DNA from: an uncultured Alphaproteobacteria bacterium
GTDB taxonomy: Bacteria > Pseudomonadota > Alphaproteobacteria > Rs-D84
Length of the DNA: 64,000 bases
Reading direction: 5' to 3'
NCBI GenBank assembly: GCA_944389525.1
Contig: CALXMR010000005.1
Span: forward strand, 362-64,361
Positions 30,873-41,065 of this stretch are shown here, in pieces. How positions within the stretch are numbered: the stretch's first letter is position 1; each line of letters begins with the position of its first letter. Below the pieces are notes generated by a model. It had not been told where the DNA came from, did not search any database, and worked only from the letters and a program-made list of their open reading frames with translations. A program made the translations under genes and the position numbers.

Positions 30873-30951
30873 TTCTGTCGCACCCTTTTTAAAAATTGGT
30901 TGCAAATCTAAATATACTGGTGTATCATTGCCGCAGACTATTGGGGTTTTT

Positions 30952-32751
30952 ATGAACCAAAAGAATATTAGAAACTTTGCAATTGTTGCCCATATTGATC
31001 ATGGTAAATCAACACTGTCAGACAGGTTGATTGAATATACTGGCGGACTGCAATCGCGCGAAATGAAGGCCCAGGTTCTGGATTCTATGGATATCGAACG
31101 CGAACGCGGAATTACGATAAAGGCCCAGACAGTGCGATTGAACTATACCGCGCGCGATGGGCAAGTATATCAGCTGAATTTAATGGATACGCCGGGACAT
31201 GTTGATTTCTCGTACGAGGTGTCGCGATCGCTGGCCGCGTGCGAGGGGGCGTTAATTCTGGTCGATGCAACCCAAGGGGTCCAGGCGCAAACACTGGCGA
31301 ATGCATATCTGGCGTTGGATAATGATTTAGAAATGCTGCCTGTGCTGAATAAAATTGATTTGCCGTCCAGTGATGTGGACGCCGCACGGGAACAGATCGC
31401 AGATGTTATTGGACTGGATGCGTCAAATGCAATATGCGTGTCGGGAAAAACAGGGGCGGGGGTGCCAGAACTGCTGGAAGAAATTGTGCATCGGTTGCCC
31501 GCACCAGATGGTGATGAAAATGCGCCGGCGCGCGCGCTGTTGGTGGATTCGTGGTATGATTCATACCTGGGGGTTGTGATATTGGTGCGCGTGGTAGATG
31601 GACAATTGACCCGTGGTCAGAAAATAAAATTTATGGCAACAGGGGCCGAATATACGGTTGAAAAAATCGGCTATTTTACGCCAAAGATGGTGGATGTGGA
31701 TGTTCTGGGTACTGGTGAAATTGGGTTTATTATAACTGGTATGAAAACAATTCATGATTGCAAGGTTGGTGATACAATTGTGGACAGTCGCACTGGGGGT
31801 GGGTGTGAACCGTTGCCGGGATTCAAGCCATCTGTGCCAGTGGTGTTTTCATCATTCTTTCCGATGGCCGCTGATGATTATCCAGCGTTGCGGGACGGGG
31901 CGGAAAAATTGGCACTGAATGATGCATCGTTCGTTTTTACAACAGAGAAGTCGTCTGCGCTGGGGTTTGGTTTGCGGTGTGGATTCTTGGGGCTGTTGCA
32001 CATGGAAATCATCAGTGAACGGTTGCGCCGTGAATTTAATCTGAGTTTGATAAGCACTGTGCCCAGCGTGCTGTACAAGGTGTATTTGCGCGATGGCACG
32101 GAATTGGATTTGGAAAATCCGGCCGATATGCCAGATGTTACGAAAATCGCGTCAATCGAAGAACCGTGGGTGCGCGCAACAATCATGATGCCTGATAAAT
32201 ATATGGGTGGTATTATGTCGCTGTGTTCGGCGCGGCGCGGAATACAAGAAAATATTTCTTATGTTGGTAATCGGGCGGTCTTGGTGTATCAGTTACCACT
32301 GGCGGAAATTGTGTTCGATTTTTACGACAGAATAAAGTCACTGTCATCGGGGTATGCATCGTTTGACTATGTGGTCCAAGGGTATCGGCCGTCTGATTTG
32401 GTCAAAGTGTCGATATTGGTTAATGATGAAAATGTTGAACCGCTGTCGTTCATATGTCATCGCAGCAATGCGGAAAAACGCGGACGGCAAATTGTCGAAA
32501 AATTAAAGGATCTGATTCCGCGACATCAATTTAAAATACCATTACAGGCGGCAATCGGCGGTAAAATTATCGCGCGTGAAACAATTGCCGCATATCGCAA
32601 GGATGTAACCGCAAAATGCTATGGCGGGGACATCACACGCAAAAGAAAGTTGTTGGAGAAGCAGAAGGAGGGAAAAAAACGAATGCGGACATTTGGAAAT
32701 GTTGAAATTCCGCAATCCGCATTTATAAATGCACTGAAGGTGTCGGATTAG
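30952..32751 (+). CDS. lepA: Translation elongation factor 4 (LepA)
   Basis: [23 protein letters not shown]-domain and the LepA-specific C-terminal domain. Confidence 0.92.
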
Positions 32752-33287
32752 AAATAAACACAATAAAAACAGGAGTTGCCAATGTTTGAAGTTATACAAT
32801 ATTTATTAAATAACAATATCAATTCAATTCGCAGTGATTGCGCAGAATATAAAATACTGCAACAAAAGTATAAATCTTTAAAGGCGCAAAAGAAAGCCGC
32901 GTATGCAAAATTGAAAGAATTTGGTGCATGTGTGTCGAATTACAAAACGTGTCAAGAATATGATTATGTTATAGATAATGGTTGTCCACCCGTCATAGAA
33001 AATGTAGTTGTTGAAGCTTACACGGAAACATTACATGCATGCGATAATTGGTCTGAAACGCCATGTCTTAACGAGAGTTGCCCGCATTTTGCTGAAAACA
33101 AAAATTATATCCGCATATTACAGGATTATAAAACAGTGTGTGATATGAAAAAGCGCTTTTGGTGTGAAAAGTTTAACCGTACTAAATAAAAAACAGATGG
33201 CGTGTTTTCTTGTTCGTTATGTTTTGAAAACGCCATATTTGTCAATTTTGGCGGAGTTTATAAATGCACTGAAAGTATCTGATTAAA
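32718..33287. repeat. Imperfect ~35-bp direct repeat of the lepA 3' terminus flanking small-protein gene A
   Basis: Copies at 32718-32752 and 33252-33287. tttataaatgcactgaa is an exact 17-mer. The second copy still encodes FINALKVSD-stop and differs only at synonymous sites. Confidence 0.6.
32782..33189 (+). CDS. Small basic Cys-motif protein, paralog A of novel family
   Basis: ATG 32782 with AGGAG RBS. Motifs KY(L/F), EYKxL, C-x-C-x3-5-C(P)x(F/Y) ... FW. Confidence 0.55.
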   Translation: MFEVIQYLLNNNINSIRSDCAEYKILQQKYKSLKAQKKAAYAKLKEFGACVSNYKTCQEYDYVIDNGCPPVIENVVVEAYTETLHACDNWSETPCLNESCPHFAENKNYIRILQDYKTVCDMKKRFWCEKFNRTK

Positions 33288-33297
33288 GGAAAATAGC

Positions 33298-33729
33298 ATG
33301 CTGAAAGAAATAATAAATTATGTGTTTTCAAAATCGCCATTGCGAATTTGGGTTGATTATGAAGACTATTTAATTATAAAAACAAAGTGCACAGAACTTG
33401 AGGAACGTATGCGTGATGCACGGCGTTTGCTGGTGCGGCCATATGTCACAAAATCAGAAATTAAAGAACCTATTGGTTGTATAAAACGACGGGTTGTTTT
33501 TCCCGTGCAGTCAGCAGAAAATATTGTTTGTGAAAGAAAATCATCTGTGATGAAGGAATATTATTGTGTGAATTTCAATGAAAGTGCACAGAGATTTTCT
33601 GATTCGTGCAATATTAAAAGCTGCCCATTGTATCAAAATTATAAAACGTATGCTGATTTAAAACGAAAGTACGAGTTCTTGTTGAATGAAAAAAAATCAT
33701 TTTGGCAAAACAAAATTTGCTTGAAATAA
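33298..33729 (+). CDS. Small basic Cys-motif protein, paralog B
   Basis: Same size and motif pattern (INYVF, SCNIKSCPLY, KSFW). Own RBS. Confidence 0.55.
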   Translation: MLKEIINYVFSKSPLRIWVDYEDYLIIKTKCTELEERMRDARRLLVRPYVTKSEIKEPIGCIKRRVVFPVQSAENIVCERKSSVMKEYYCVNFNESAQRFSDSCNIKSCPLYQNYKTYADLKRKYEFLLNEKKSFWQNKICLK

Positions 33730-33750
33730 AAATAGAAAAGAGGATTTTTT

Positions 33751-34167
33751 ATGGGTTTGTTTAAATATTTGTATACAACATCGTGGAATAAAATTCATCA
33801 AGATATCCAGGAATATAAAAGGTTGCGTCAGACAGAAAAAACGGCAGACAAGCTGATGTGGGAAAAATATTCACAAATAAAAATTGATTTGGGGCCACAA
33901 GAATATGATATCACCCAAACAACCAATGGCTGTATCGTGCTGTGCGAGCAATTGTTGCCGGACTTTGGTCGTGATACAGTGCCAATGCTTTTACTGCGCA
34001 GATCGGTGTGTCCATATTTTAAATATAAAGAGTTTTGTAATCGGTCAGATTGTGAATTCAGAACACAGCAAAAACAGTATGTTGAAGCGGTTGTTCGGTA
34101 TGACTTGATAAAAAGTGAATGCAGAAATTTTTGGCGCAAGAAATTTATCGCGTCAAATACAAAGTAA
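33751..34167 (+). CDS. Small basic Cys-motif protein, paralog C
   Basis: Motifs FKYLY, QEYKRL, SVCPYF...CNRSDCEF, RNFW. RBS AGAGGA. Confidence 0.55.
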   Translation: MGLFKYLYTTSWNKIHQDIQEYKRLRQTEKTADKLMWEKYSQIKIDLGPQEYDITQTTNGCIVLCEQLLPDFGRDTVPMLLLRRSVCPYFKYKEFCNRSDCEFRTQQKQYVEAVVRYDLIKSECRNFWRKKFIASNTK

Positions 34168-34186
34168 GATAGTACAGGAAAATAAA

Positions 34187-34582
34187 ATGTTTCTAGGAAA
34201 ATTAAAATATGCTATTCGTGCCCCAATTGTGTGTATAAAGAAAAATTGGCATGAATACAAATTTTTAAGCAAAGCAATTGATCGGGCTCAAAAGGCGTGT
34301 GACCAGGCTAGAGCAAATATAACAACGGTCAGTTTTGATGATGATGGATTGTCTTGTATTGTAAAACATAGCACATTTGTACGCTTTTCTGAAAGACAGA
34401 AAAAGCCATTTTATTGTGATTATGAAACGCATTGTCTGATGTGGCGTGAAGGCTGTACCGTAAAAACATGTCAATATTTTAATAGACATATTACGTACAA
34501 TAAAGCTAAATCTAGATTAGATATGCTGATGACACGAAAAAATAATTTTTGGTCACGAAAATTATCTGGAAAAATTAGATAA
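34187..34582 (+). CDS. Small basic Cys-motif protein, paralog D
   Basis: Start at MFLGKLKY (ATG 34187, AGGAAA RBS), not the ORF-track start at 34115. Motifs HEYKFL, CQYF, NNFW. Confidence 0.5.
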   Translation: MFLGKLKYAIRAPIVCIKKNWHEYKFLSKAIDRAQKACDQARANITTVSFDDDGLSCIVKHSTFVRFSERQKKPFYCDYETHCLMWREGCTVKTCQYFNRHITYNKAKSRLDMLMTRKNNFWSRKLSGKIR

Positions 34583-34595
34583 ATGGAGGTGCATA

Positions 34596-35015
34596 ATGTT
34601 TATTGATTGGGTTAAATATTTTTTAAAAACAACCAGGGCAGAAAGAATTTCAGATAGAAAAAAATACGATAATTTGAACACGGTATATAAAATAAAGGCT
34701 CAACAGTGCATCTTGGCATATAATGATTTGTTGTCATTTAATGGCGAAATGTCTTGTCGTTGTACAAAGATGAGTTTAAAGACAACTATTGACAATAATC
34801 CTGGGGGTAATAATACCGCAACAGGTCTTGTAAAAAGTATCTTTGTGGAATGCCCCAAGTTTTTTTATTATACGGAATGCGATAATGAAGACTGTTCGTT
34901 TTATGAAAAAAACAAAAATTTTGTTCGTTTAAATAATGAATTGGTGGAAGTGCGCTTGAAGCGGGATGCATTTTGGCAAATCACAGTTGATAAAAGGTTG
35001 GAAAAAATATACTAG
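34596..35015 (+). CDS. Small basic Cys-motif protein, paralog E
   Basis: GGAGG RBS. Motifs VKYFL, ECPKFFYYTECDNEDCSFY, DAFW. Confidence 0.55.
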   Translation: MFIDWVKYFLKTTRAERISDRKKYDNLNTVYKIKAQQCILAYNDLLSFNGEMSCRCTKMSLKTTIDNNPGGNNTATGLVKSIFVECPKFFYYTECDNEDCSFYEKNKNFVRLNNELVEVRLKRDAFWQITVDKRLEKIY

Positions 35016-35033
35016 ATATAGGTGAAAAAGACC

Positions 35034-36032
35034 ATGGCACATCAATTTTTTTTCAATCCGTTTATATTGGATAATTTGCCGGCCCCAGCAACAGGGTTTG
35101 ATGTTGTCCAGGATATTTCTGAACCACGGTTGCGTATGTATGTGACCAGCCGGGGTGTAAAAACATTCTTTGTGCGTAAACGCGTGCATGGGCGTGACCG
35201 GCGCATATTGATTGGTAATTATCCTGATGTGGATATCGAAACAGCGCGCGGGGCAGTGTCAGAGATTTTGACCCGTGCCATGGAAAAACCAGTTCAGCAT
35301 CGCCGTAAAATCACATTTCGCAAATTCTTGGATTTATATATGGCGAATCGTGTTCGGCGCAGTGGGTATTCGTACGATAAACTGGTTCGGGCCGTGAACC
35401 GTCATTTGGGGGGGCTGTTTGATAAAAATTTATCTGATATAACACCGGCAGATATATCAACAACAATTTCAAATATAGATGGTCGGGCAATTGCCGCGCG
35501 TATGCAAGAATTTCTGCAAAGTGTTTTTAAATATGCGGTGGAAAACGGGTATGTGGTGGAAAATCCAGTCTCGACATTGCCCAAAATATCACAAAATCGC
35601 CGCGTGCGCCCATTGAATAAATCTGGGTTCTTGCGATTGATGCGCGTATTACAGCGCCAGCCATCGCCTGTACTGCGGTCGGCGTTTTTGATGTTGGTGT
35701 ACGGTTTTGCACCAAAGTCCCAGGTTTTTGCAATGCAATGGCGTGACTTAGATTTTAATCATTACACATGGTGTGATCGGCCATTGTCAGATGCGGCGGT
35801 GGTATTGCTGCAAGATTTGCCCCAGGACAGTCGTTGGGTTTTTCCGGGACGGGGCCGGGGACATTTGACCGACCCGCGTGTCGCGTGGCGGCGTGTGGCG
35901 GTGGCGGCTGGGATACCAAATTTGACAATGGATGATGTTTATAAATTCTTGATGCGCCAGGTTGTCTGGGCGTCAGACAAGGAAGAGTTTCGTGCAAATA
36001 TGAATGCGCTGTTATCAGAACTGATGGCGTAA
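35034..36032 (+). CDS. Tyrosine recombinase/P4-type integrase homolog with degenerate catalytic residues
   Basis: N-terminal DUF4102-like arm-binding region (RLRMYVTSRGVKTFFVRKRVHGRDRRILIGNYPDVDIETAR). SAM-like core-binding region. In the C-terminal region the R, HxxR and Y catalytic positions appear substituted (GFAPKSQ, TMDDVYKF, EEFRANM). Confidence 0.6.
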   Translation: MAHQFFFNPFILDNLPAPATGFDVVQDISEPRLRMYVTSRGVKTFFVRKRVHGRDRRILIGNYPDVDIETARGAVSEILTRAMEKPVQHRRKITFRKFLDLYMANRVRRSGYSYDKLVRAVNRHLGGLFDKNLSDITPADISTTISNIDGRAIAARMQEFLQSVFKYAVENGYVVENPVSTLPKISQNRRVRPLNKSGFLRLMRVLQRQPSPVLRSAFLMLVYGFAPKSQVFAMQWRDLDFNHYTWCDRPLSDAAVVLLQDLPQDSRWVFPGRGRGHLTDPRVAWRRVAVAAGIPNLTMDDVYKFLMRQVVWASDKEEFRANMNALLSELMA

Positions 36033-36166
36033 ACATAAATTTCTGTAATTGTCAAGCGTTTGTTATCGTTTGTTATAATTCCTTGACACTGGTGGCGGAA
36101 AATGATAGTTTAGAATAATGACGCCCATGTGTGGGCCACAAATTTAACCTAAACAAAGGATAAAAA

Positions 36167-36400
36167 ATGACAACTTTTGAAAAAGTAAGAAAAATAGTCG
36201 CCGACAAATTGGGTGTACAGGAATCGAAAATCGAAGAAACATCTGCATTTGTTAACGATCTGGGCGCAGATTCTTTGGATGTTGTTGAATTCGTTATGGA
36301 AGTGGAAAAAGAATTCGATATCACTATCCCAGATGAAGAAGCAGCCAAACTGACAACAGTTGGTGATGCGGTAAAGTATATCGAAGCGCATAAAAAATAA
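36167..36400 (+). CDS. acpP: Acyl carrier protein
   Basis: 77 aa. DSLD phosphopantetheine attachment motif ([13 protein letters not shown]). Confidence 0.92.
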
Positions 36401-36427
36401 TTCTACAAGGGTTTATAGACTCTGGGG

Positions 36428-36468
36428 GTTCCGTTGTGATATCTTGTTATTGCAACGGAACTTTTTTT
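36428..36468 (+). terminator. Rho-independent terminator after acpP
   Basis: gttccgttg ... caacggaac hairpin followed by TTTTTTT. Confidence 0.5.
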
Positions 36469-36534
36469 CTGTACGCGGGGCAAAAAACAGTCTATGATTG
36501 TCACAGGTATTTAGTTTTTTAGAAAGGATAATGA

Positions 36535-37788
36535 ATGAAAAGAGTTGTTATCACTGGTATGGGTATTGTGTCACCGGTTGGAACGGGGATTGAATACGCG
36601 TGGAAAAATATTGTCAATGGTGTTTCTGGGGTTCGTAAAATCGATACATTTGATGCGTCTGATTTATCGTCACAGATTGCGGGGTTGCCGATTATTGGAA
36701 CAGATGCCGGACAATACAATCCTGATGCGGTGGTTGACGCGCGCGAACAGCGTAAAATGGACAAGTGCATTGTATACGGCATGGTCGCCGCGGACGAGGC
36801 TATTCGTGATGCTGGATTAATTGACTATGATGGTGACAAAAGTCGCATGGGGGTATCAATTGGTGCCGGTATTGGTGGATTGAATACAATATATGACAAC
36901 TGTGTTGAACTGTATGCGAATGGTCCGCGTCATATCAGTCCATTCTTTATACCAAAGGTTATTATTAATATGACCGCCGGTCATGTTTCCATCAAGTATG
37001 GATTAAAGGGGCCGAACTTGTCGGTGGTGACGGCGTGCGCGTCGGCGGCGCATTCAATTGGTGAAGCGGTTCGTTTAATTCAACATGGTGATGCTGATGT
37101 CATGGTTGCCGGTGGTGCCGAAGGTGCGGTTGGTAAAATCGGTGTTGCTGGGTTCTGTGCGATGAAGGCGTTAAGTACGCGCAATGATGCGCCGACCAAA
37201 GCATCGCGCCCCTGGGACAAGGAACGCGATGGTTTTGTCATGGCCGAAGGTGCGGGTATTCTGGTTCTGGAAGAATACGAACATGCGGTTGCCCGTGGCG
37301 CAAAGATTTATGCCGAAGTGGCGGGATACGGTCTGTCGGGTGATGCGTATCATATTACTGCGCCGGCCCCTGGGGGCGAAGGCGGTCTGCGCGCGATGCA
37401 GGCGGCGTTAAAAGATGCCGGTATGCAGCCGGGTGATGTTGACTATATCAATGCACACGGTACATCAACAGGTTTGGGCGACCTGGGCGAATTAAGCGCG
37501 GTGCAAACATTATTTGCTGGCACAAATGTTTCGATGTCGTCAACAAAATCTATGACAGGGCATCTGTTGGGTGCCGCCGGCGGGGTAGAGGCGATATTCT
37601 GTGTCATGGCGATTCGTGATGGTATCGTTCCGCCGACAATTAATTTGGAAAATCCAGAAGATGCAGTTGGTGATTTCGACCTGGTGCCGAATGTTGCAAA
37701 ACAGCGGCCGGTTAATGTCGCGTTAAGCAATTCTTTTGGATTTGGTGGTACAAATGCCAGTTTGATTATCAAACGATTTGAAAAATAA
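36535..37788 (+). CDS. fabF: 3-oxoacyl-ACP synthase II
   Basis: KAS II: Cys-His-His catalytic residues. Conserved acpP-fabF linkage. 417 aa. Confidence 0.9.
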   Translation: MKRVVITGMGIVSPVGTGIEYAWKNIVNGVSGVRKIDTFDASDLSSQIAGLPIIGTDAGQYNPDAVVDAREQRKMDKCIVYGMVAADEAIRDAGLIDYDGDKSRMGVSIGAGIGGLNTIYDNCVELYANGPRHISPFFIPKVIINMTAGHVSIKYGLKGPNLSVVTACASAAHSIGEAVRLIQHGDADVMVAGGAEGAVGKIGVAGFCAMKALSTRNDAPTKASRPWDKERDGFVMAEGAGILVLEEYEHAVARGAKIYAEVAGYGLSGDAYHITAPAPGGEGGLRAMQAALKDAGMQPGDVDYINAHGTSTGLGDLGELSAVQTLFAGTNVSMSSTKSMTGHLLGAAGGVEAIFCVMAIRDGIVPPTINLENPEDAVGDFDLVPNVAKQRPVNVALSNSFGFGGTNASLIIKRFEK

Positions 37789-37814
37789 AAAACGGGGCAT
37801 CGCCCCGTTTTTTC
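37787..37814 (+). terminator. Rho-independent terminator after fabF (aacggggcatcgccccgtt plus T-run)
   Basis: Perfect GC hairpin followed by TTTTTT. Confidence 0.65.
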
Positions 37815-37857
37815 AAAGGCAAAGCGCAGAGTGCAATTGTTATCCGCGGTTTTCTCT

Positions 37858-37958
37858 CTCTTGTCACCCCGTGGTCAAGCCCACCGGGTGACAAGATGAA
37901 AAGTGTCATCCTGGGGTCAAGCCCCAGGATGACAAGAAAGACAGTCACGGGGTGACAG
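37858..37958. repeat. Three adjacent palindromes sharing tgacaag arms and tcaagc loops
   Basis: cttgtcaccccgtggtcaagcccaccgggtgacaag, gtcatcctggggtcaagccccaggatgacaag, gtcacggggtgac. Motifs related to the 29.1-29.4 kb repeat family. Confidence 0.6.
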
Positions 37959-38059
37959 ATTTATGAGTTGGGTGTAACTGGTGCTGTTGTTACAATAATA
38001 TTTTTGTTGATTTTTTGTCCCGGGGGTTGCATAATCGGCCTGCTTTGGTTGTGAATGTC

Positions 38060-38135
<76 letters not shown>

Positions 38136-38271
38136 CTGTTTGATATCTTTTTGGTAAATCAAGGGACATCATGTCCCGTTTATTTTTTCGCGGAAATTTT
38201 TATTCATATTTTTATTTTACATGTCATAAATATATTGCAATAATCTGTTGTAACGCAAAAAGGGTTGTTTT

Positions 38272-39954
38272 ATGTTCGCACGTAAATTCTTAAAAAAGAC
38301 AGAGTTTGATAACTATGATGACTATATTCAAAATGGTGCGCCAATTGTCCCCGCGAATTTTAATTTTGCATATGATGTGATTGATGTCTTGGGGCAACAG
38401 GAACCGAACAAGTTGGCGTTGCTGTGGACGGACGATTCAGGCGTTAAAATGGAATTTACTTTTCGCGATTTGTCGCGTATGTCAAATGCCGTGGCAAATT
38501 TCTTGGCATCGCGGGGGCTGCATCGTGGGGATACGGTGTTGCTGTTTATGCGGCGGCGGTGGGAATATTGGATTTTGATGTTGGCCATGCATAAACTGGG
38601 GGTGATTCCAATTCCATCCACCAATCAATTAAAGGCCGAAGATATTGAATATCGCATAGACCAGGCCGCATGTCGTGCCATTGTCGCATTTGACGATGGG
38701 CACATCGTTGATGAAATAAAAAAAGCAATTGGTGAACGCGATGTGCAATTGATTTCTAATATCGAAGTTGCCGAATCGATTGATACTATGCCGGATACAT
38801 TGACGCGTGTGCCAAATGAAAATACTGATACTATGGTGATTTATTTTACCAGTGGCACCACAGATATGCCGAAGATGGTGGCGCATAATTTTGTTTATCC
38901 GTTGGGGCATATAAATACCGCGCTGTTCTGGCAGCGGTTGCATGACGGCGACATTCATTTCACATTGTCTGAATCGGGTTGGGCAAAATGTTCATGGGGC
39001 AAGATGTATGGCCAGTGGCTGGCCGGGGCGGTCGTGTTTGTGTTTGATTTTGCGGGCATTGCAACGGCACATGATTTATTACAGGCAATGGCAGATAATC
39101 ATATTACATCTTTCTGTGCACCACCGACTGTGTATAAAATGCTGATACATGCAGATTTCAGTAAGTATGATTTGTCTGCATTGAAAAAGGCCGATGTCGC
39201 AGGCGAAGCATTGAATCCAGAGGTTTATGAACGCTTTTATAACGCCACAGGGGTAAAATTACACGAAGGATTCGGTCAAACAGAAACATGTATATTGCTG
39301 TTTACGAATCAGTGGATTGAACCAAAACCAGGCAGTATGGGTATGCCGGCCGCGGGTTGGGATATAATGTTGCTGGACGAAGGGGGGCGGCCTGTGCCCA
39401 CTGGCACGGTTGGTGAAATTTGTGTGTCATTAAAAAATGGGCGCCCCGTTGGTCTGTTCCAGGGATATCACAAAAATGAAAAACTGACCGCCAAGGCGTT
39501 TCGTGACGATATCTATCATACGGGTGATGTTGCCTATCGTGATAATGATGGATATTTTTGGTTCGTGGGTCGTAATGATGATCTGATTAAAACATCTGGG
39601 TATCGCGTCAGCCCGTTCGAGGTGGAAAGTGTGCTGTTGGAACATCCGGCCGTACGCGAAGTGGCAGTCACTGGTGTGCCAGATCCAACCCGTGGTATGG
39701 CGGTCAAGGCGACAATTGTTCTGAACAAATATTTCCAGGGTACTGATGTTCTGGTGCGTCAATTACAGGACCATGTGCGTGCGCGGACTGCATCGTATAA
39801 ATATCCGCGTATAATCGAATTCGTGGACAGTTTGCCGATGACTATTTCTGGGAAAATTCGCCGCGCGCTGATACGAACACTGGACAGTGCCAAGGGTACC
39901 ATTATTGAACCGGTCAAGAATGTCATCGGTCTGGGCAAGGACGAAGAAAAATAA
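38272..39954 (+). CDS. AMP-dependent synthetase/ligase (acyl-CoA synthetase family)
   Basis: AMP-binding motif YTSGTTDMPKMV. Adenylate-forming domain architecture. 560 aa. Confidence 0.8.
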   Translation: MFARKFLKKTEFDNYDDYIQNGAPIVPANFNFAYDVIDVLGQQEPNKLALLWTDDSGVKMEFTFRDLSRMSNAVANFLASRGLHRGDTVLLFMRRRWEYWILMLAMHKLGVIPIPSTNQLKAEDIEYRIDQAACRAIVAFDDGHIVDEIKKAIGERDVQLISNIEVAESIDTMPDTLTRVPNENTDTMVIYFTSGTTDMPKMVAHNFVYPLGHINTALFWQRLHDGDIHFTLSESGWAKCSWGKMYGQWLAGAVVFVFDFAGIATAHDLLQAMADNHITSFCAPPTVYKMLIHADFSKYDLSALKKADVAGEALNPEVYERFYNATGVKLHEGFGQTETCILLFTNQWIEPKPGSMGMPAAGWDIMLLDEGGRPVPTGTVGEICVSLKNGRPVGLFQGYHKNEKLTAKAFRDDIYHTGDVAYRDNDGYFWFVGRNDDLIKTSGYRVSPFEVESVLLEHPAVREVAVTGVPDPTRGMAVKATIVLNKYFQGTDVLVRQLQDHVRARTASYKYPRIIEFVDSLPMTISGKIRRALIRTLDSAKGTIIEPVKNVIGLGKDEEK

Positions 39955-40048: not shown

Positions 40049-41065
40049 ATGAGAAAGAGAAAACTGATTCCCAAAAACAAGTATGTGAATGTTGTATGTG
40101 TCGTACTGATTGCGGTGGTGATTGCGCTGGGCTATGTATTCGGGTGGCGGTCTGTGGTGAAGACAGATGTTGTGTTTAATATCGACCGCGGAACCAGTGT
40201 GTCGGCGGTTGCCACAGAATTGGTGGCGCATGATTTAATCGATTCGCCAGATTTGTTTAAATTGGCCGTGCGTGGAAATGGGGGTGCGGTACAATCTGGG
40301 ATGTATGATATCGCGCGCGGAACCAGTCTGTGGCGCATGGCGCGCATGTTTGCACGCGGTGATGTTGCCGCAACAACCGTTGTTATTCCCGAAGGACTGA
40401 CCGTGCAACAGATAAAGCAGTTGTTAATGGAAACGCCAACATTAACCGGCGGGGTTGAATGTGGCGATGATACAGATTTACCGGTTTGTGATTTACATGA
40501 TGGCGAATTATTTCCTGATACATATCGTGTTGCGCGCGGAACATCGCGGCTGGCGTTCTTGGATTTGATGCGGAAAAAAATGATGGATGTGAAAGAAAAT
40601 TGGCAGCGGGCAGGGCGCATCGCACCAAAACCATTACGGGACTGGAACGATGTTGTAACATTGGCATCAATTGTGCAAAAAGAAACCCCGCGCACAGACG
40701 AAATGCCAATTGTCGCCAGTGTGTATTTAAATCGTCTGCGCGATGGAATGCGCTTACAGGCCGATCCGACTGTGGTGTATGCGTTAACTAATGGGTTGGG
40801 CGATATGCAGGGACGGCCGCTGTTGCGTGGACATTTACAAATCGACAGTTCGTATAATACTTATAAAAACTATGGGTTGCCGCCGGGGCCGATTGCAAAT
40901 GTGGGACTGGATGCAATATATGCGGTTTTGCAACCCGCGGATACAAATTATCTGTATTTTGTGGCAGACGGCCAGGGTGGACATCGATTTGCGCGAACAT
41001 ATGACCAGCATATGAAAAATCACGCTGACTGGCGCGCGATAAAAAAACTTAAAGCGCAAGAGTAA
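40049..41065 (+). CDS. mltG: Endolytic murein transglycosylase MltG (YceG family)
   Basis: N-terminal TM. YceG-like domain with conserved YYFVADGQGGHRFARTYDQH. Confidence 0.85.
   Translation: MRKRKLIPKNKYVNVVCVVLIAVVIALGYVFGWRSVVKTDVVFNIDRGTSVSAVATELVAHDLIDSPDLFKLAVRGNGGAVQSGMYDIARGTSLWRMARMFARGDVAATTVVIPEGLTVQQIKQLLMETPTLTGGVECGDDTDLPVCDLHDGELFPDTYRVARGTSRLAFLDLMRKKMMDVKENWQRAGRIAPKPLRDWNDVVTLASIVQKETPRTDEMPIVASVYLNRLRDGMRLQADPTVVYALTNGLGDMQGRPLLRGHLQIDSSYNTYKNYGLPPGPIANVGLDAIYAVLQPADTNYLYFVADGQGGHRFARTYDQHMKNHADWRAIKKLKAQE

What the first reader, a model, noticed from the sequence alone, without database searches (positions are those of the whole stretch)
35034..36032. Integrase homolog with all catalytic positions apparently substituted
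The protein has a clear P4-type arm-binding N-terminus (DUF4102-like) and a core-binding region. In my by-eye alignment of the catalytic domain the conserved Arg I (TGxRxxE becomes GFAPKSQ), the HxxR box (becomes TMDDVYKF) and the terminal Tyr (becomes EEFRANM) are all replaced, and the protein is ~60 aa shorter than typical P4 integrases. Yet the ORF is intact with a good RBS. This could be a decaying integrase marking an immobilised island or a domesticated integrase-derived DNA-binding protein.
Basis: inference. Interest (0 to 1): 0.55.

Follow-up and report, generated by a model that had tools for sequence, protein, structure and literature searches.

The report
Catalytically dead integrase kept as host gene
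A gene that descends from a phage-type integrase has lost every residue needed to cut DNA, yet it is strictly conserved at one chromosomal position in hundreds of species of tiny-genome gut bacteria, so the host most likely keeps it as a DNA-binding protein and it is not a decaying relic.

Summary
The ORF at 35034-36032 (332 aa) has the arm-binding domain, the core-binding domain and a degenerate catalytic domain of a P4/SXT-type tyrosine integrase. Profile-profile alignment with its nearest active relatives puts Pro227 at Arg I, a 10-12-residue deletion at the Lys hairpin, Asp300 at His and Tyr303 at Arg II. The C-terminal His/Trp...Tyr segment is missing altogether. None of 199 distinct family sequences restores a catalytic residue.

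It is not a pseudogene. At least 224 species of Candidatus Enterousia and related gut Alphaproteobacteria (genomes under 1 Mb) encode it. In all 80 loci examined it is intact and lies in the order lepA-[0-8 small ORFs]-intL-acpP-fabF. That synteny persists down to 39% identity. dN/dS is 0.04-0.15, and 0.115 in the degenerate catalytic domain.

The best reading is a domesticated, non-catalytic DNA-binding protein. A candidate target lies 26 nt downstream of its stop codon: the repeat TTTGTTAT-NN-TTTGTTAT, found in 78/78 species, 6 nt before the acpP -35 box in 77. IntL binding to it is inference only.

No att site links the gene to tRNA-Pro. The neighbouring small-ORF array is a variable insertion hot spot, and one cassette carries a scar of the lepA 3' end.

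The parts
35034..36032 (+). intL: gene for a 332-aa integrase-derived protein without catalytic residues
   Evidence: ORF and RBS. 1083 homologues, the top 120 all 332-350 aa and none with PF00589. Purifying selection.
35034..35303 (+). Arm-type DNA-binding domain (residues 1-90, DUF4102/Arm-DNA-bind_3); the most conserved part of the protein
   Evidence: Pfam PF13356, 29.4 bits against a cut-off of 27. Profile hit to the HPI integrase arm domain 3jtz. Mean conservation 0.84 and omega 0.10.
35313..35603 (+). Core-binding (SAM-like / Phage_int_M) domain, residues about 94-190
   Evidence: Pfam PF22022 and PF14659. PDB profile hits to integrase core-binding domains 2kkv, 2kj9 and 2kiw. pLDDT 83-93.
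35604..36029 (+). Degenerate catalytic-domain remnant, residues 191-332. The structural core motifs are kept (MxWxDLD, PLSxxA, WVFP, GHLxDP..AW).
   Evidence: hhalign against active relatives. Foldseek top hits are lambda Int, Brujita Int, XerA and Tn1549 Int. Omega 0.16 and 0.115 for the two halves.
35712..35714 (+). Pro227 codon at the position of catalytic Arg I
   Evidence: Family census: P180, S7, T5, N3, K2, H1, Q1, never Arg.
35778..35783 (+). Site of the 10-12-residue deletion (between Arg249 and Pro250) that removes the beta-hairpin carrying the catalytic Lys
   Evidence: Alignment A2 and hhalign.
35931..35942 (+). Asp300-Asp301-Val302-Tyr303 at the HxxR box (His to Asp, Arg II to Tyr)
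   Evidence: Census: D193/G2/N2/T1/S1 at the His position and Y113/H44/N40/I2 at the Arg II position.
35949..36029 (+). 27-residue C-terminal tail (one predicted helix, 316-331) in place of the ~50-60-residue segment that carries His/Trp III and the Tyr nucleophile
   Evidence: This tail is not aligned by hhalign. Tails are 25-36 aa across the family and no column is a conserved Tyr. Secondary structure.
36059..36076 (+). Conserved direct repeat TTTGTTAT-CG-TTTGTTAT, 26 nt after the intL stop and 6 nt before the acpP -35 box; candidate IntL binding site (inference)
   Evidence: Present in 78/78 species spacers with at most 2 mismatches. The TGTTA core is invariant in both copies and the 2-nt linker varies freely. 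The distance to TTGACA is 6 nt in 77/78. Shuffled spacers never come closer than 3 mismatches.
36083..36111 (+). Conserved acpP promoter-like element: TTGACA, 17 nt, TG-n-TAGTTT (extended -10)
   Evidence: Read from the sequence. Conserved in at least 80% of 78 species.
30928..32751 (+). lepA (EF4), the conserved upstream neighbour. In lineages without the small-ORF array it ends 3-28 bp before intL, so co-transcription is likely.
   Evidence: Pfam. Synteny and gap lengths. No terminator-like site on the + strand between lepA and intL.
32782..35015 (+). Array of five tandem paralogous small ORFs (131-143 aa, three invariant Cys, C-terminal FW motif, GC 0.34), inserted between lepA and intL
   Evidence: Copy number is 0-8 among species and hits occur only in this interval.
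36167..37788 (+). acpP (36167-36400) and fabF (36535-37788), the conserved downstream neighbours

Best explanation
intL is a domesticated pseudo-recombinase. An ancestor of the Rs-D84/Enterousia lineage captured a P4/SXT-type (DUF4102 arm domain) tyrosine integrase next to lepA. The gene then lost all six catalytic positions (Arg I, Lys, His, Arg II, His/Trp, Tyr) but kept the arm-binding domain, the core-binding domain and the structural core of the catalytic domain.

It therefore cannot cleave or rejoin DNA. Most likely it acts by binding DNA alone, as a sequence-specific regulatory or architectural protein, using the same two DNA-binding surfaces that let true integrases bridge arm and core sites and repress their own promoters. 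It is probably expressed with lepA.

Its best candidate target is the invariant direct repeat TTTGTTAT-NN-TTTGTTAT just upstream of the acpP-fabF promoter, which would make it a regulator of acyl-carrier-protein and fatty-acid synthesis genes.

Shown: loss of the catalytic residues, integrase ancestry and fold, purifying selection, deep synteny, and conservation of the repeat.
Inferred: DNA binding, co-transcription with lepA, and the repeat as target (about 0.25 on its own).
For: Ancestry and fold. hhalign against active relatives gives probability 100% and E 2e-58. PHROG_1 integrase matches at E 2e-29. The top Foldseek hits are all tyrosine recombinases, with lambda Int first at E 4e-8.

Catalytic loss. 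PF00589 is not detected at E<=10. No catalytic residue is restored in any of 199 distinct sequences.

Functional constraint. NG86 dN/dS is 0.04-0.10 for the closest pairs, and the median is 0.15 over 401 pairs. By domain it is 0.10 (arm), 0.21 (core-binding) and 0.16/0.115 (the two halves of the catalytic remnant). 104 positions are at least 97% conserved.

Host-gene status. 224 species hits were found, and all 80 loci examined are gut Enterousia-type MAGs. All have lepA-(variable)-intL-acpP-fabF. The same order holds at 47%, 46%, 43% and 39% identity. The family is absent from IMG/VR viral contigs. The nearest active relatives carry PF00589 and sit among mobile-element-type genes (HTH_17, HTH_3, S24 peptidase, Fic). 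These genomes are under 1 Mb (PMC12306168).

Candidate site. A second fatty-acid link is that the 34%-identical member P0129 sits beside an acyl-ACP thioesterase gene.

Precedent. The IntS integrase represses its own promoter through arm-type and core-type sites (PMC2951348).
Against: No experiment or computation here shows that IntL binds DNA, or this repeat in particular.
- The repeat lies inside a generally conserved promoter region and could be bound by another factor or act as an UP-like element.
- At deeper divergence only part of it remains: one GTTAT-like copy in L084 and L088, two in L087.
- The motif is not enriched elsewhere in the 64-kb window, so there is no sign of a regulon.
- Conserved adjacency to acpP could simply reflect frozen gene order in reduced genomes.
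- The AF2 model has low confidence in the arm domain (pLDDT 34-61 over residues 1-90) because the alignment was shallow.
Confidence: 0.8

Rival explanations
1. Non-catalytic recognition or architectural subunit of a cassette-insertion system. IntL binds the lepA 3' end or the junction region and directs, assists or blocks insertion of the small-ORF cassettes that pile up between lepA and intL. An active recombinase encoded elsewhere, or homologous recombination, does the strand exchange. This would parallel TnsF, an inactivated tyrosine recombinase that selects the target for Tn6022.
For: - The small-ORF family occurs only in the lepA-intL interval, in 0-8 copies per species.
- par1 is followed by a decayed copy of the lepA 3' end: 29 nt at 26/29 identity with none expected by chance, and weaker similarity extending roughly 20 nt further upstream across an 11-nt gap.
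- Between this window and L001, par1 has dS 0.126. The flanking genes have intL 1.33, mid-lepA 1.5-1.6, the last 57 lepA codons 0.41, acpP 0.43 and fabF 0.53. This indicates recent transfer of [lepA 3' end + par1].
- TnsF provides a precedent (PMC10293859).
Against: - The deepest lineages have lepA directly followed by intL with no array (gaps of 3, 18 and 74 bp), as do 7 Enterousia species. IntL is therefore conserved where there are no cassettes.
- Only one insertion scar was found among 78 loci.
- Nothing upstream of intL is conserved beyond the RBS, and the cassette junctions share no att-like motif.
- Other par ORFs look vertically inherited and simply evolve fast.
- No carrier element turned up in viral contigs.
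- No active recombinase gene lies in the window.
Confidence: 0.1
2. Decaying integrase pseudogene left behind by an immobilised genomic island.
For: All catalytic residues are lost and the protein is shortened. A low-GC variable gene array lies next to it.
Against: - The frame is intact and the length is 327-353 aa in every full-length family member.
- dN/dS is 0.04-0.15, including in the degenerate domain.
- Synteny is conserved down to 39% identity.
- The gene is retained in genomes under 1 Mb, which shed non-functional DNA.
- No att repeats or adjacent tRNA are present.
Confidence: 0.03
3. Still an active recombinase or nuclease that uses an unconventional active site built from other conserved residues (for example Lys228, His277, Arg282, Lys304, Asp301).
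For: Several polar and basic residues of the C-terminal domain are invariant: K228/R, H277, R282, D301, K304, R320.
Against: - No conserved Tyr, or other obvious nucleophile, exists in the C-terminal 100 residues. Columns 244 and 303 are only partly Tyr.
- The Lys hairpin and the Tyr-bearing segment are physically deleted, not substituted.
- H277, W285 and D301 are also conserved in active relatives as non-catalytic family motifs.
Confidence: 0.02
4. A protein-protein scaffold that no longer binds DNA (for example a partner of LepA/ribosome or of the fatty-acid synthesis machinery), with the integrase fold reused for another purpose.
For: Tight linkage to lepA (gaps down to 3 bp) and to acpP-fabF over deep divergence. 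One divergent member sits beside an acyl-ACP thioesterase gene.
Against: The arm-type DNA-binding domain is the most strongly conserved part. It keeps its basic motif FFVRKRxxGRDxR and the residues it shares with active integrases, which is hard to explain without DNA binding.
Confidence: 0.05

Closest known systems
P4/SXT-type tyrosine integrases with a DUF4102 arm-binding domain (IntSXT subgroup of Smyshlyaev et al. 2021, PMC8138268; e.g. HPI integrase, P4 Int, KplE1 IntS)
   Same: The three-domain order is the same (arm-binding, core-binding, catalytic-type domain). Identity to the nearest active members is 25-31%, and hhalign gives probability 100% over residues 1-305. Family motifs are shared (TFF.RKR..GR..R, ANR, MxW.DID, WVFP, GHL.(E/D)P..AW).
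   Different: All catalytic residues are replaced or deleted and the protein is about 60 aa shorter. It is a single-copy host gene at a fixed chromosomal position and not part of a mobile element. It has no att repeats and no adjacent tRNA.
Bacteriophage lambda integrase (PDB 1z1b/1z1g/5j0n)
   Same: It is the best structural match (Foldseek E 4e-8) and the best PDB sequence match (E 1e-6, residues 52-248). Both are heterobivalent in layout, with arm-binding, core-binding and catalytic-type domains.
   Different: Sequence similarity stops at the Arg I region, where IntL has Pro at lambda R212. The arm domain is of the DUF4102 type, not the lambda type.
TnsF of Tn6022-like Tn7 transposons (Faure et al. 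2023, PMC10293859)
   Same: It is a bacterial protein with an inactivated tyrosine-recombinase domain, kept for DNA recognition and bending and not for catalysis.
   Different: TnsF is carried by a transposon, has N-terminal zinc fingers and tandem core-binding-like domains, and serves transposition. IntL is a host core gene with a DUF4102 arm domain. No Tn7 genes appeared among the IntL neighbours that were identified. Homology between the two was not tested directly.
Eukaryotic DUF3504 proteins derived from Crypton tyrosine recombinases (KCTD1, ZMYM2-4, QRICH1, KIAA1958; Kojima and Jurka 2011, PMC3212892), and yeast Ndc10 (recalled from memory, not checked here)
   Same: These are domesticated tyrosine recombinases that lost the catalytic Tyr and Arg yet are strongly conserved. 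Many act as transcription regulators or DNA-binding proteins.
   Different: They are eukaryotic, of independent origin, and lack an arm-binding domain. The Pfam scan at E<=10 returned three integrase-domain families and no DUF3504.
Integrases that act as transcriptional repressors of their own promoter (IntS of KplE1; Panis et al. 2010, PMC2951348)
   Same: This is the proposed way of working: arm-type and core-type site binding overlaps a promoter and controls transcription without recombination.
   Different: IntS is a fully active recombinase and its repression is a side function at its own attL. For IntL, DNA binding would be the only function, and the candidate site is at the promoter of the downstream acpP gene.

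Membership tests
Tyrosine recombinase / phage integrase catalytic family (PF00589) | Catalytic Arg I in the TGxR motif | tested here: not met
   Pro227 aligns with Arg I. It is never Arg in 199 sequences.
Tyrosine recombinase / phage integrase catalytic family (PF00589) | Catalytic Lys on the beta2-beta3 hairpin | tested here: not met
   A 10-12-residue deletion removes the hairpin.
Tyrosine recombinase / phage integrase catalytic family (PF00589) | HxxR box (His II, Arg II) | tested here: not met
   IHDLRRT aligns with MDDVYKF. The His position is D/G/N/T/S and the Arg II position is Y/H/N/I across the family.
Tyrosine recombinase / phage integrase catalytic family (PF00589) | C-terminal His/Trp III and Tyr nucleophile | tested here: not met
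   The segment is absent. The 25-36-residue tail is not aligned and has no conserved Tyr. The active-integrase profile matches only positions 3-327 of 385.
Tyrosine recombinase / phage integrase catalytic family (PF00589) | Significant match to the Pfam catalytic-domain model | tested here: not met
   PF00589 is not reported even at E<=10, whereas the nearest active relatives carry it.
Tyrosine recombinase / phage integrase catalytic family (PF00589) | Overall tyrosine-recombinase fold (core-binding plus catalytic-type domain) | tested here: met
   The 18 Foldseek hits with E<=0.001 are all tyrosine recombinases, at probability 1.00. The model has mean pLDDT 73.9, and 75-93 over most of residues 91-332 apart from a 271-278 loop. 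TM-scores are low (0.3-0.4) because the domains are arranged differently.
IntSXT/P4-type integrases (DUF4102 subgroup) | N-terminal DUF4102 / Arm-DNA-bind_3 domain | tested here: met
   PF13356 scores 29.4 bits against a cut-off of 27. Profile hit to 3jtz at E 0.002.
IntSXT/P4-type integrases (DUF4102 subgroup) | Central core-binding domain (Phage_int_M / SAM-like) | tested here: met
   PF22022 scores 26.2 bits, just under the cut-off of 27. hhalign covers the domain at probability 100%, and NMR core-binding domains are matched.
IntSXT/P4-type integrases (DUF4102 subgroup) | Encoded at the edge of a mobile element, next to its att site (usually a tRNA or gene 3' end) and bounded by direct repeats | tested here: not met
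   Fixed synteny lepA-intL-acpP-fabF in 80 species and in deep lineages. No tRNA-Pro 3' repeat. No tRNA in the related loci. Absent from viral contigs.
IntSXT/P4-type integrases (DUF4102 subgroup) | Site-specific recombination activity | not testable with these tools
   Needs biochemistry. The sequence predicts none.
Pseudogene / decaying integrase remnant | Frameshifts, premature stops or variable truncation among orthologues | tested here: not met
   All 81 orthologous ORFs are intact at 331-337 codons. The 120 best database clusters are 332-350 aa.
Pseudogene / decaying integrase remnant | Relaxed selection (dN/dS near 1) | tested here: not met
   Omega is 0.04-0.10 for the closest pairs, with a median of 0.15, and 0.115 in the C-terminal domain.
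Inactivated-recombinase DNA-binding proteins (TnsF; DUF3504) | Sequence membership in those families | tested here: not met
   DUF3504 is not among the three families the Pfam scan returned at E<=10. TnsF was not compared directly. The resemblance is functional only.
Integron-like cassette system | Active IntI-type integrase, an attI site and attC-bounded cassettes | tested here: not met
   IntL lacks the catalytic residues. The cassette junctions are 13-24 bp (108 bp after par1) and carry no shared repeat or hairpin. Only one junction carries a scar.

The most novel reading that the evidence does not exclude
IntL is a new type of bacterial transcription or architectural factor built from a complete heterobivalent integrase. 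It has become indispensable in the reduced genomes of Rs-D84/Enterousia and controls acpP-fabF (lipid synthesis) through the invariant TTTGTTAT-NN-TTTGTTAT repeat. Its residual affinity for the ancestral attachment region at the lepA 3' end would, in addition, make the lepA-intL junction a capture site where small mobile cassettes such as par1 accumulate.
Probability: 0.2. Interest if true: 0.75.

Novelty: new variant of a known kind. Interest (0 to 1): 0.58.

Why it matters
Pseudo-enzymes derived from mobile-element recombinases are well documented in eukaryotes (DUF3504 proteins). In bacteria they have so far been described on transposons (TnsF).

Here a complete arm/core/catalytic-type integrase has lost all catalytic residues yet is kept under strong purifying selection as a single-copy chromosomal gene. 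This holds across hundreds of species whose genomes are under 1 Mb, where useless DNA is quickly lost. That argues for an important host function gained by domestication.

The case offers a clean natural example of how an integrase turns into a pure DNA-binding protein. It also carries a practical warning for annotation: these genes are labelled "integrase" and would wrongly flag a mobile element or genomic island.

The nearby invariant repeat at the acpP promoter gives a concrete hypothesis that can be tested cheaply in vitro, even though the organisms are uncultured.

Tried and rejected
- att site at tRNA-Pro. The 25-nt 3' end of the tRNA occurs only once in the window, and acpP-fabF separate it from intL, so this was rejected.
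- Other recombinases. A profile of active relatives finds only intL among 278 window ORFs.
- Defence-system link. PADLOC gives no hit for IntL or the five small ORFs.
- Phage origin of the neighbours. PHROGs gives nothing significant for the small ORFs. IMG/VR scans for the IntL family, par1 and the lepA 3' 29-mer found nothing. The scan with the paralogue alignment could not run.
- RNA elements. Rfam finds only tRNA-Pro in 32000-38500.
- Regulon search. The paired repeat occurs once in the window, and the single 8-mer is not enriched: 8 found against 6.5 expected.
- Conserved site upstream of intL (attB-like). Only the RBS is conserved.
- General lepA 3' duplications. Only the par1 clade has one.
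- Structure of a small ORF. The AF2 model of par2 gives two confident long helices, but the Cys-rich middle is below pLDDT 50, so no fold search was run.
- par1 homologues. Only 8 clusters, all in 87-96%-identical local alignments to par1, and nothing distant.
- Names in databases. The only name given is "integrase" (JGI).
- Literature. Searches found no description of a host-conserved, catalytically dead arm-type integrase in bacteria. This covers the held library only.
Full report
**1. The observation**

The + strand ORF at 35034-36032 encodes 332 aa. An AGGTGA ribosome-binding site lies 8 nt upstream of the ATG. Orthologues invariably start MAHQFFF, so 35034 is the true start.

Pfam detects the DUF4102-type arm DNA-binding domain (PF13356, residues 32-83, 29.4 bits against a cut-off of 27). 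It also detects the integrase central domain (PF22022, residues 128-182, 26.2 bits) and a weak SAM-like match. There is no match to the catalytic-domain model PF00589, even at E<=10. PHROG_1 (integrase) matches residues 26-298 at E 2e-29.

**2. Where the catalytic residues went**

Three independent alignments agree.
- phmmer against lambda Int (E 1e-6, residues 52-248) puts Pro of YGFAPKS opposite lambda Arg212.
- An exhaustive profile search of 1.84 billion representatives first returned a handful of full-length family members (327-353 aa, more than 265 bits). Scores then dropped sharply to about 160 bits for integrases of roughly 390 aa.
- Alignment with those integrases (A2), and hhalign of the family profile against a profile of 20 of them, gave probability 100%, E 2e-58 and 28% identity.

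The mapping is:
- Arg I (TGARRS) corresponds to Pro227.
- The beta-hairpin IPETKNG that carries the catalytic Lys corresponds to a 10-12-residue deletion after YTWCDR.
- RIHDLRRT corresponds to TMDDVYKF, so His becomes Asp300 and Arg II becomes Tyr303.
- The hhalign alignment ends at residue 305. The remaining 27 residues (one predicted helix) have no counterpart to the ~50-60 residues of active relatives that carry LGH...Y.

A profile built from active relatives matches IntL at 211 bits, but only over profile positions 3-327 of 385.

In 199 distinct family sequences:
- the Arg I position is P/S/T/N/K/H/Q;
- the His position is D/G/N/T/S;
- the Arg II position is Y/H/N/I;
- no column of the C-terminal part is a conserved Tyr.

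The one refinement is that the Tyr region is deleted, not substituted.

The AlphaFold2 model has mean pLDDT 73.9 and is good over most of residues 91-332. It retrieves only tyrosine recombinases from the PDB: lambda Int first at E 4e-8, then Brujita Int, XerA, Tn1549 Int and the integron integrase.

**3. It is not decaying**

- The word-indexed search found 1083 homologues. The best 120 clusters are all 332-350 aa at 73-99% identity, and none carries PF00589.
- In the one-genome-per-species collection, 224 stretches (one genome per species) encode a relative. The 80 retained loci (65-84% identity) are all gut MAGs labelled Candidatus Enterousia or uncultured Alphaproteobacteria, apart from one record titled Bacteroides fragilis that is probably mislabelled. 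One is a circular 958-kb chromosome.
- Enterousia belongs to the order Rs-D84, whose members have genomes under about 1 Mb (PMC12306168).
- All 81 ORFs are intact.
- Nei-Gojobori dN/dS is 0.04-0.10 for the closest pairs, with a median of 0.15 over 401 pairs with dS 0.1-1.5. By domain it is 0.10 (arm), 0.21 (core-binding), 0.16 (residues 191-250) and 0.115 (residues 251-332).
- The degenerate catalytic domain is thus as constrained as the arm domain, and 104 positions are at least 97% conserved.
- Structural-core motifs shared with active integrases are retained (MxWxDLD, PLSxxA, WVFP, GHLxDP..AW), while exactly the catalytic positions are lost. This is the signature of a pseudo-enzyme.

**4. 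Context**

The neighbours are as follows:

| Gene | Window coordinates |
|---|---|
| lepA (EF4) | 30928-32751 |
| acpP | 36167-36400 |
| fabF | 36535-37788 |
| tRNA-Pro(CGG) | 38059-38135 |
| acyl-CoA synthetase-like gene | 38272-39954 |
| mltG/yceG | 40049-41065 |

In all 80 species loci the order is lepA-[variable interval]-intL-acpP-fabF, on one strand. The lepA-to-intL gap is 17-28 bp in 7 species, about 400-460 bp in about 30, and up to 3.7 kb in others.

Divergent family members keep the arrangement:

| Member | Identity to window protein | Arrangement |
|---|---|---|
| P0121 | 47% | lepA-3 bp-intL-acpP-fabF |
| P0122 | 46% | lepA-74 bp-intL-acpP-fabF-mltG |
| P0123 | 43% | lepA-18 bp-intL |
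| P0126 | 39% | intL-acpP-fabF-mltG |
| P0129 | 34% | acyl-ACP thioesterase-intL-recR-ksgA (different) |

By contrast, the nearest active relatives carry PF00589 and lie among mobile-element-type genes: HTH_17, HTH_3 and an S24 peptidase for one, and a Fic/RhuM-domain gene for the other. The family is absent from IMG/VR. The window has no other tyrosine recombinase. The tRNA-Pro 3' end has no repeat.

No terminator-like site lies on the + strand between lepA and intL. The first convincing one follows acpP. Co-transcription with lepA is therefore likely, but it is inferred.

**5. How it most likely works**

The protein keeps both DNA-binding modules of a heterobivalent integrase, and the clamp-like remnant of the catalytic domain, but it has no nucleophile and no activating residues. 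The best-supported reading is that it acts by DNA binding alone, as a regulator or architectural factor. True integrases of this type already do this as a side activity: IntS of KplE1 represses its own promoter through arm-type and core-type sites (PMC2951348).

A concrete candidate site exists. The 134-bp intL-acpP spacer is unusually conserved. It contains TTTGTTAT-CG-TTTGTTAT at 36059-36076, followed 6 nt later by TTGACA (36083-36088), then 17 nt, then TG-n-TAGTTT (36103-36111). Across 78 species the repeat behaves as follows:
- It is present with 0 mismatches in 56 species, 1 in 16 and 2 in 6.
- The TGTTA core is invariant in both copies.
- The two linker bases vary freely, with 8 different dinucleotides.
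- The distance to the -35 box is fixed in 77 of 78.
- Shuffled spacers never come closer than 3 mismatches.

Two 8-bp repeats one helical turn apart, at about -41 to -58, is the geometry of a tandem activator or repressor site, and arm-type sites are typically direct repeats. Synonymous sites of the adjacent genes are saturated (dS above 1 for intL), so this element is under selection.

Whether IntL is the protein that binds it is pure inference (about 0.25). The motif is not enriched elsewhere in the window. At deeper divergence two copies persist in L087 but only one in L084 and L088.

**6. The neighbouring array and the "island" idea**

Between lepA and intL the window carries five tandem paralogous ORFs of 131-143 aa. 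GC dips to 0.34. They have three invariant Cys and a C-terminal FW motif, and no Pfam, PHROG or PADLOC match. A profile of them hits 1-8 ORFs in 69 of the 80 loci, always inside the lepA-intL interval and nowhere else in the 64-kb window. Most evolve faster than intL.

One unit, par1, shows a real insertion signature:
- The last 29 nt of lepA recur 3' of par1 at 26/29 identity, with none expected by chance. Weaker similarity extends roughly 20 nt further upstream across an 11-nt gap. The same relic is present in L001 and L003.
- Between this window and L001, par1 has dS 0.126 and the last 57 lepA codons 0.41. This compares with 1.5-1.6 for mid-lepA, 1.33 for intL, 0.43 for acpP and 0.53 for fabF.
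- So a segment made of the lepA 3' end plus par1 was exchanged recently and displaced the resident lepA end.

The lepA-intL junction is therefore an insertion hot spot. It is compatible with the idea that the lepA 3' end was the attachment site of the ancestral element. But the deepest lineages and seven Enterousia species have no array while IntL is fully conserved, and only this one scar was found in 78 loci. A role for IntL in cassette capture therefore remains a minority hypothesis (about 0.1).

**7. Comparison with what is known**

By descent IntL belongs to the DUF4102/IntSXT-type integrases (PMC8138268). It fails every catalytic criterion of the tyrosine-recombinase family and the mobile-element criterion, so it should not be filed as an integrase.

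Functionally its closest analogues are:
- TnsF, an inactivated tyrosine-recombinase domain used as a Tn7 target selector (PMC10293859);
- the eukaryotic Crypton-derived DUF3504 proteins, which lost the catalytic tetrad but are conserved regulators (PMC3212892).

Within the library searched, I found no report of a host-conserved, catalytically dead, complete arm-type integrase in bacteria. The only database name for the family is "integrase".

**8. Verdict**

- The pseudogene/island reading is rejected.
- The domesticated DNA-binding reading is supported at about 0.8. Its specific target is unproven.
- Novelty: a new variant of a known kind (a recombinase-derived pseudo-enzyme).
- Interest is moderate to high for the mobile-DNA and genome-reduction fields. 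There is also a practical lesson: the "integrase" annotation here does not mark a mobile element.

Noticed in passing
window 32776-35015: Five tandem, co-directional paralogous ORFs of 131-143 aa lie between lepA and intL. They are 18-30% identical to one another, have three invariant Cys and a C-terminal FW motif, and GC is about 0.34 against about 0.45 for the window. They have no Pfam, PHROG or PADLOC match. The family occurs in 0-8 copies per Enterousia species, only in this interval, and usually evolves faster than intL. The AF2 model of par2 shows two confident long helices with an unresolved Cys-rich middle.
   Followed up: partly
window 32722-32750 and 33234-33286 (also L001 and L003): The 3' end of lepA is duplicated as a decaying relic just downstream of par1. 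par1 plus the last ~170 nt of lepA are far less diverged from L001 and L003 (dS 0.13-0.19 for par1, 0.36-0.41 for the lepA end) than mid-lepA (1.2-1.6) or intL (1.3-1.6). This is the signature of a recent transfer or insertion of a ~0.6-kb cassette at the lepA 3' end. No other locus of the 78 examined shows such a scar.
   Followed up: partly
window 36059-36111: The direct repeat TTTGTTAT-NN-TTTGTTAT lies 6 nt upstream of a TTGACA-17 nt-TGnTAGTTT promoter-like element for acpP. It is essentially invariant in 78 species while the 2-nt linker varies. An upstream TTGTCA (36049-36054) with TATAAT (36074-36079) at a 19-nt spacing overlaps the repeat.
   Followed up: partly
window 36123-36136: A small hairpin, GCCCA-TGTG-TGGGC, sits in the presumed acpP 5' leader. 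In other species the stem changes by apparently compensatory substitutions (for example GGTC...GGACC in L041 and L073), which suggests a conserved RNA or DNA stem-loop. There is no Rfam match.
   Followed up: no
window 33196-33236: An inverted repeat, GATGGCGTGTTTTC-16 nt-GAAAACGCCAT, lies immediately after the par1 stop codon, at the right edge of the recently transferred segment and abutting the lepA relic. It has no T-run, so it is not an obvious terminator.
   Followed up: no
window 37850-37960: A cluster of G+C-rich palindromes lies between the fabF terminator (37787-37813) and tRNA-Pro. It includes a 13-bp-stem hairpin at 37904-37934 and repeated GTCACCCCGTG/CACGGGGTGAC motifs, and may be a REP-like element.
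   Followed up: no
L014 5276-5503, L023 4286-4513, L024 4344-4568, L029 5364-5594: In four species the variable lepA-intL interval also holds a second, divergent acyl-carrier-protein-like ORF (32-39% identical to acpP) among the small paralogues.
   Followed up: no
L081 2580-5033 (contig CAZEWI010000038.1): The most divergent family member (P0129, 353 aa, 34% identity) is not next to lepA and acpP. It lies between an acyl-ACP thioesterase gene and recR. This is a second association with a fatty-acid gene, and it may be chance.
   Followed up: no
L057 (CAVGNU010000007.1): A contig titled 'Bacteroides fragilis isolate ... cleanbin' carries the full Enterousia-type lepA-par-intL-acpP-fabF locus (IntL 70% identical). 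This is almost certainly a binning or labelling error in the public record.
   Followed up: no
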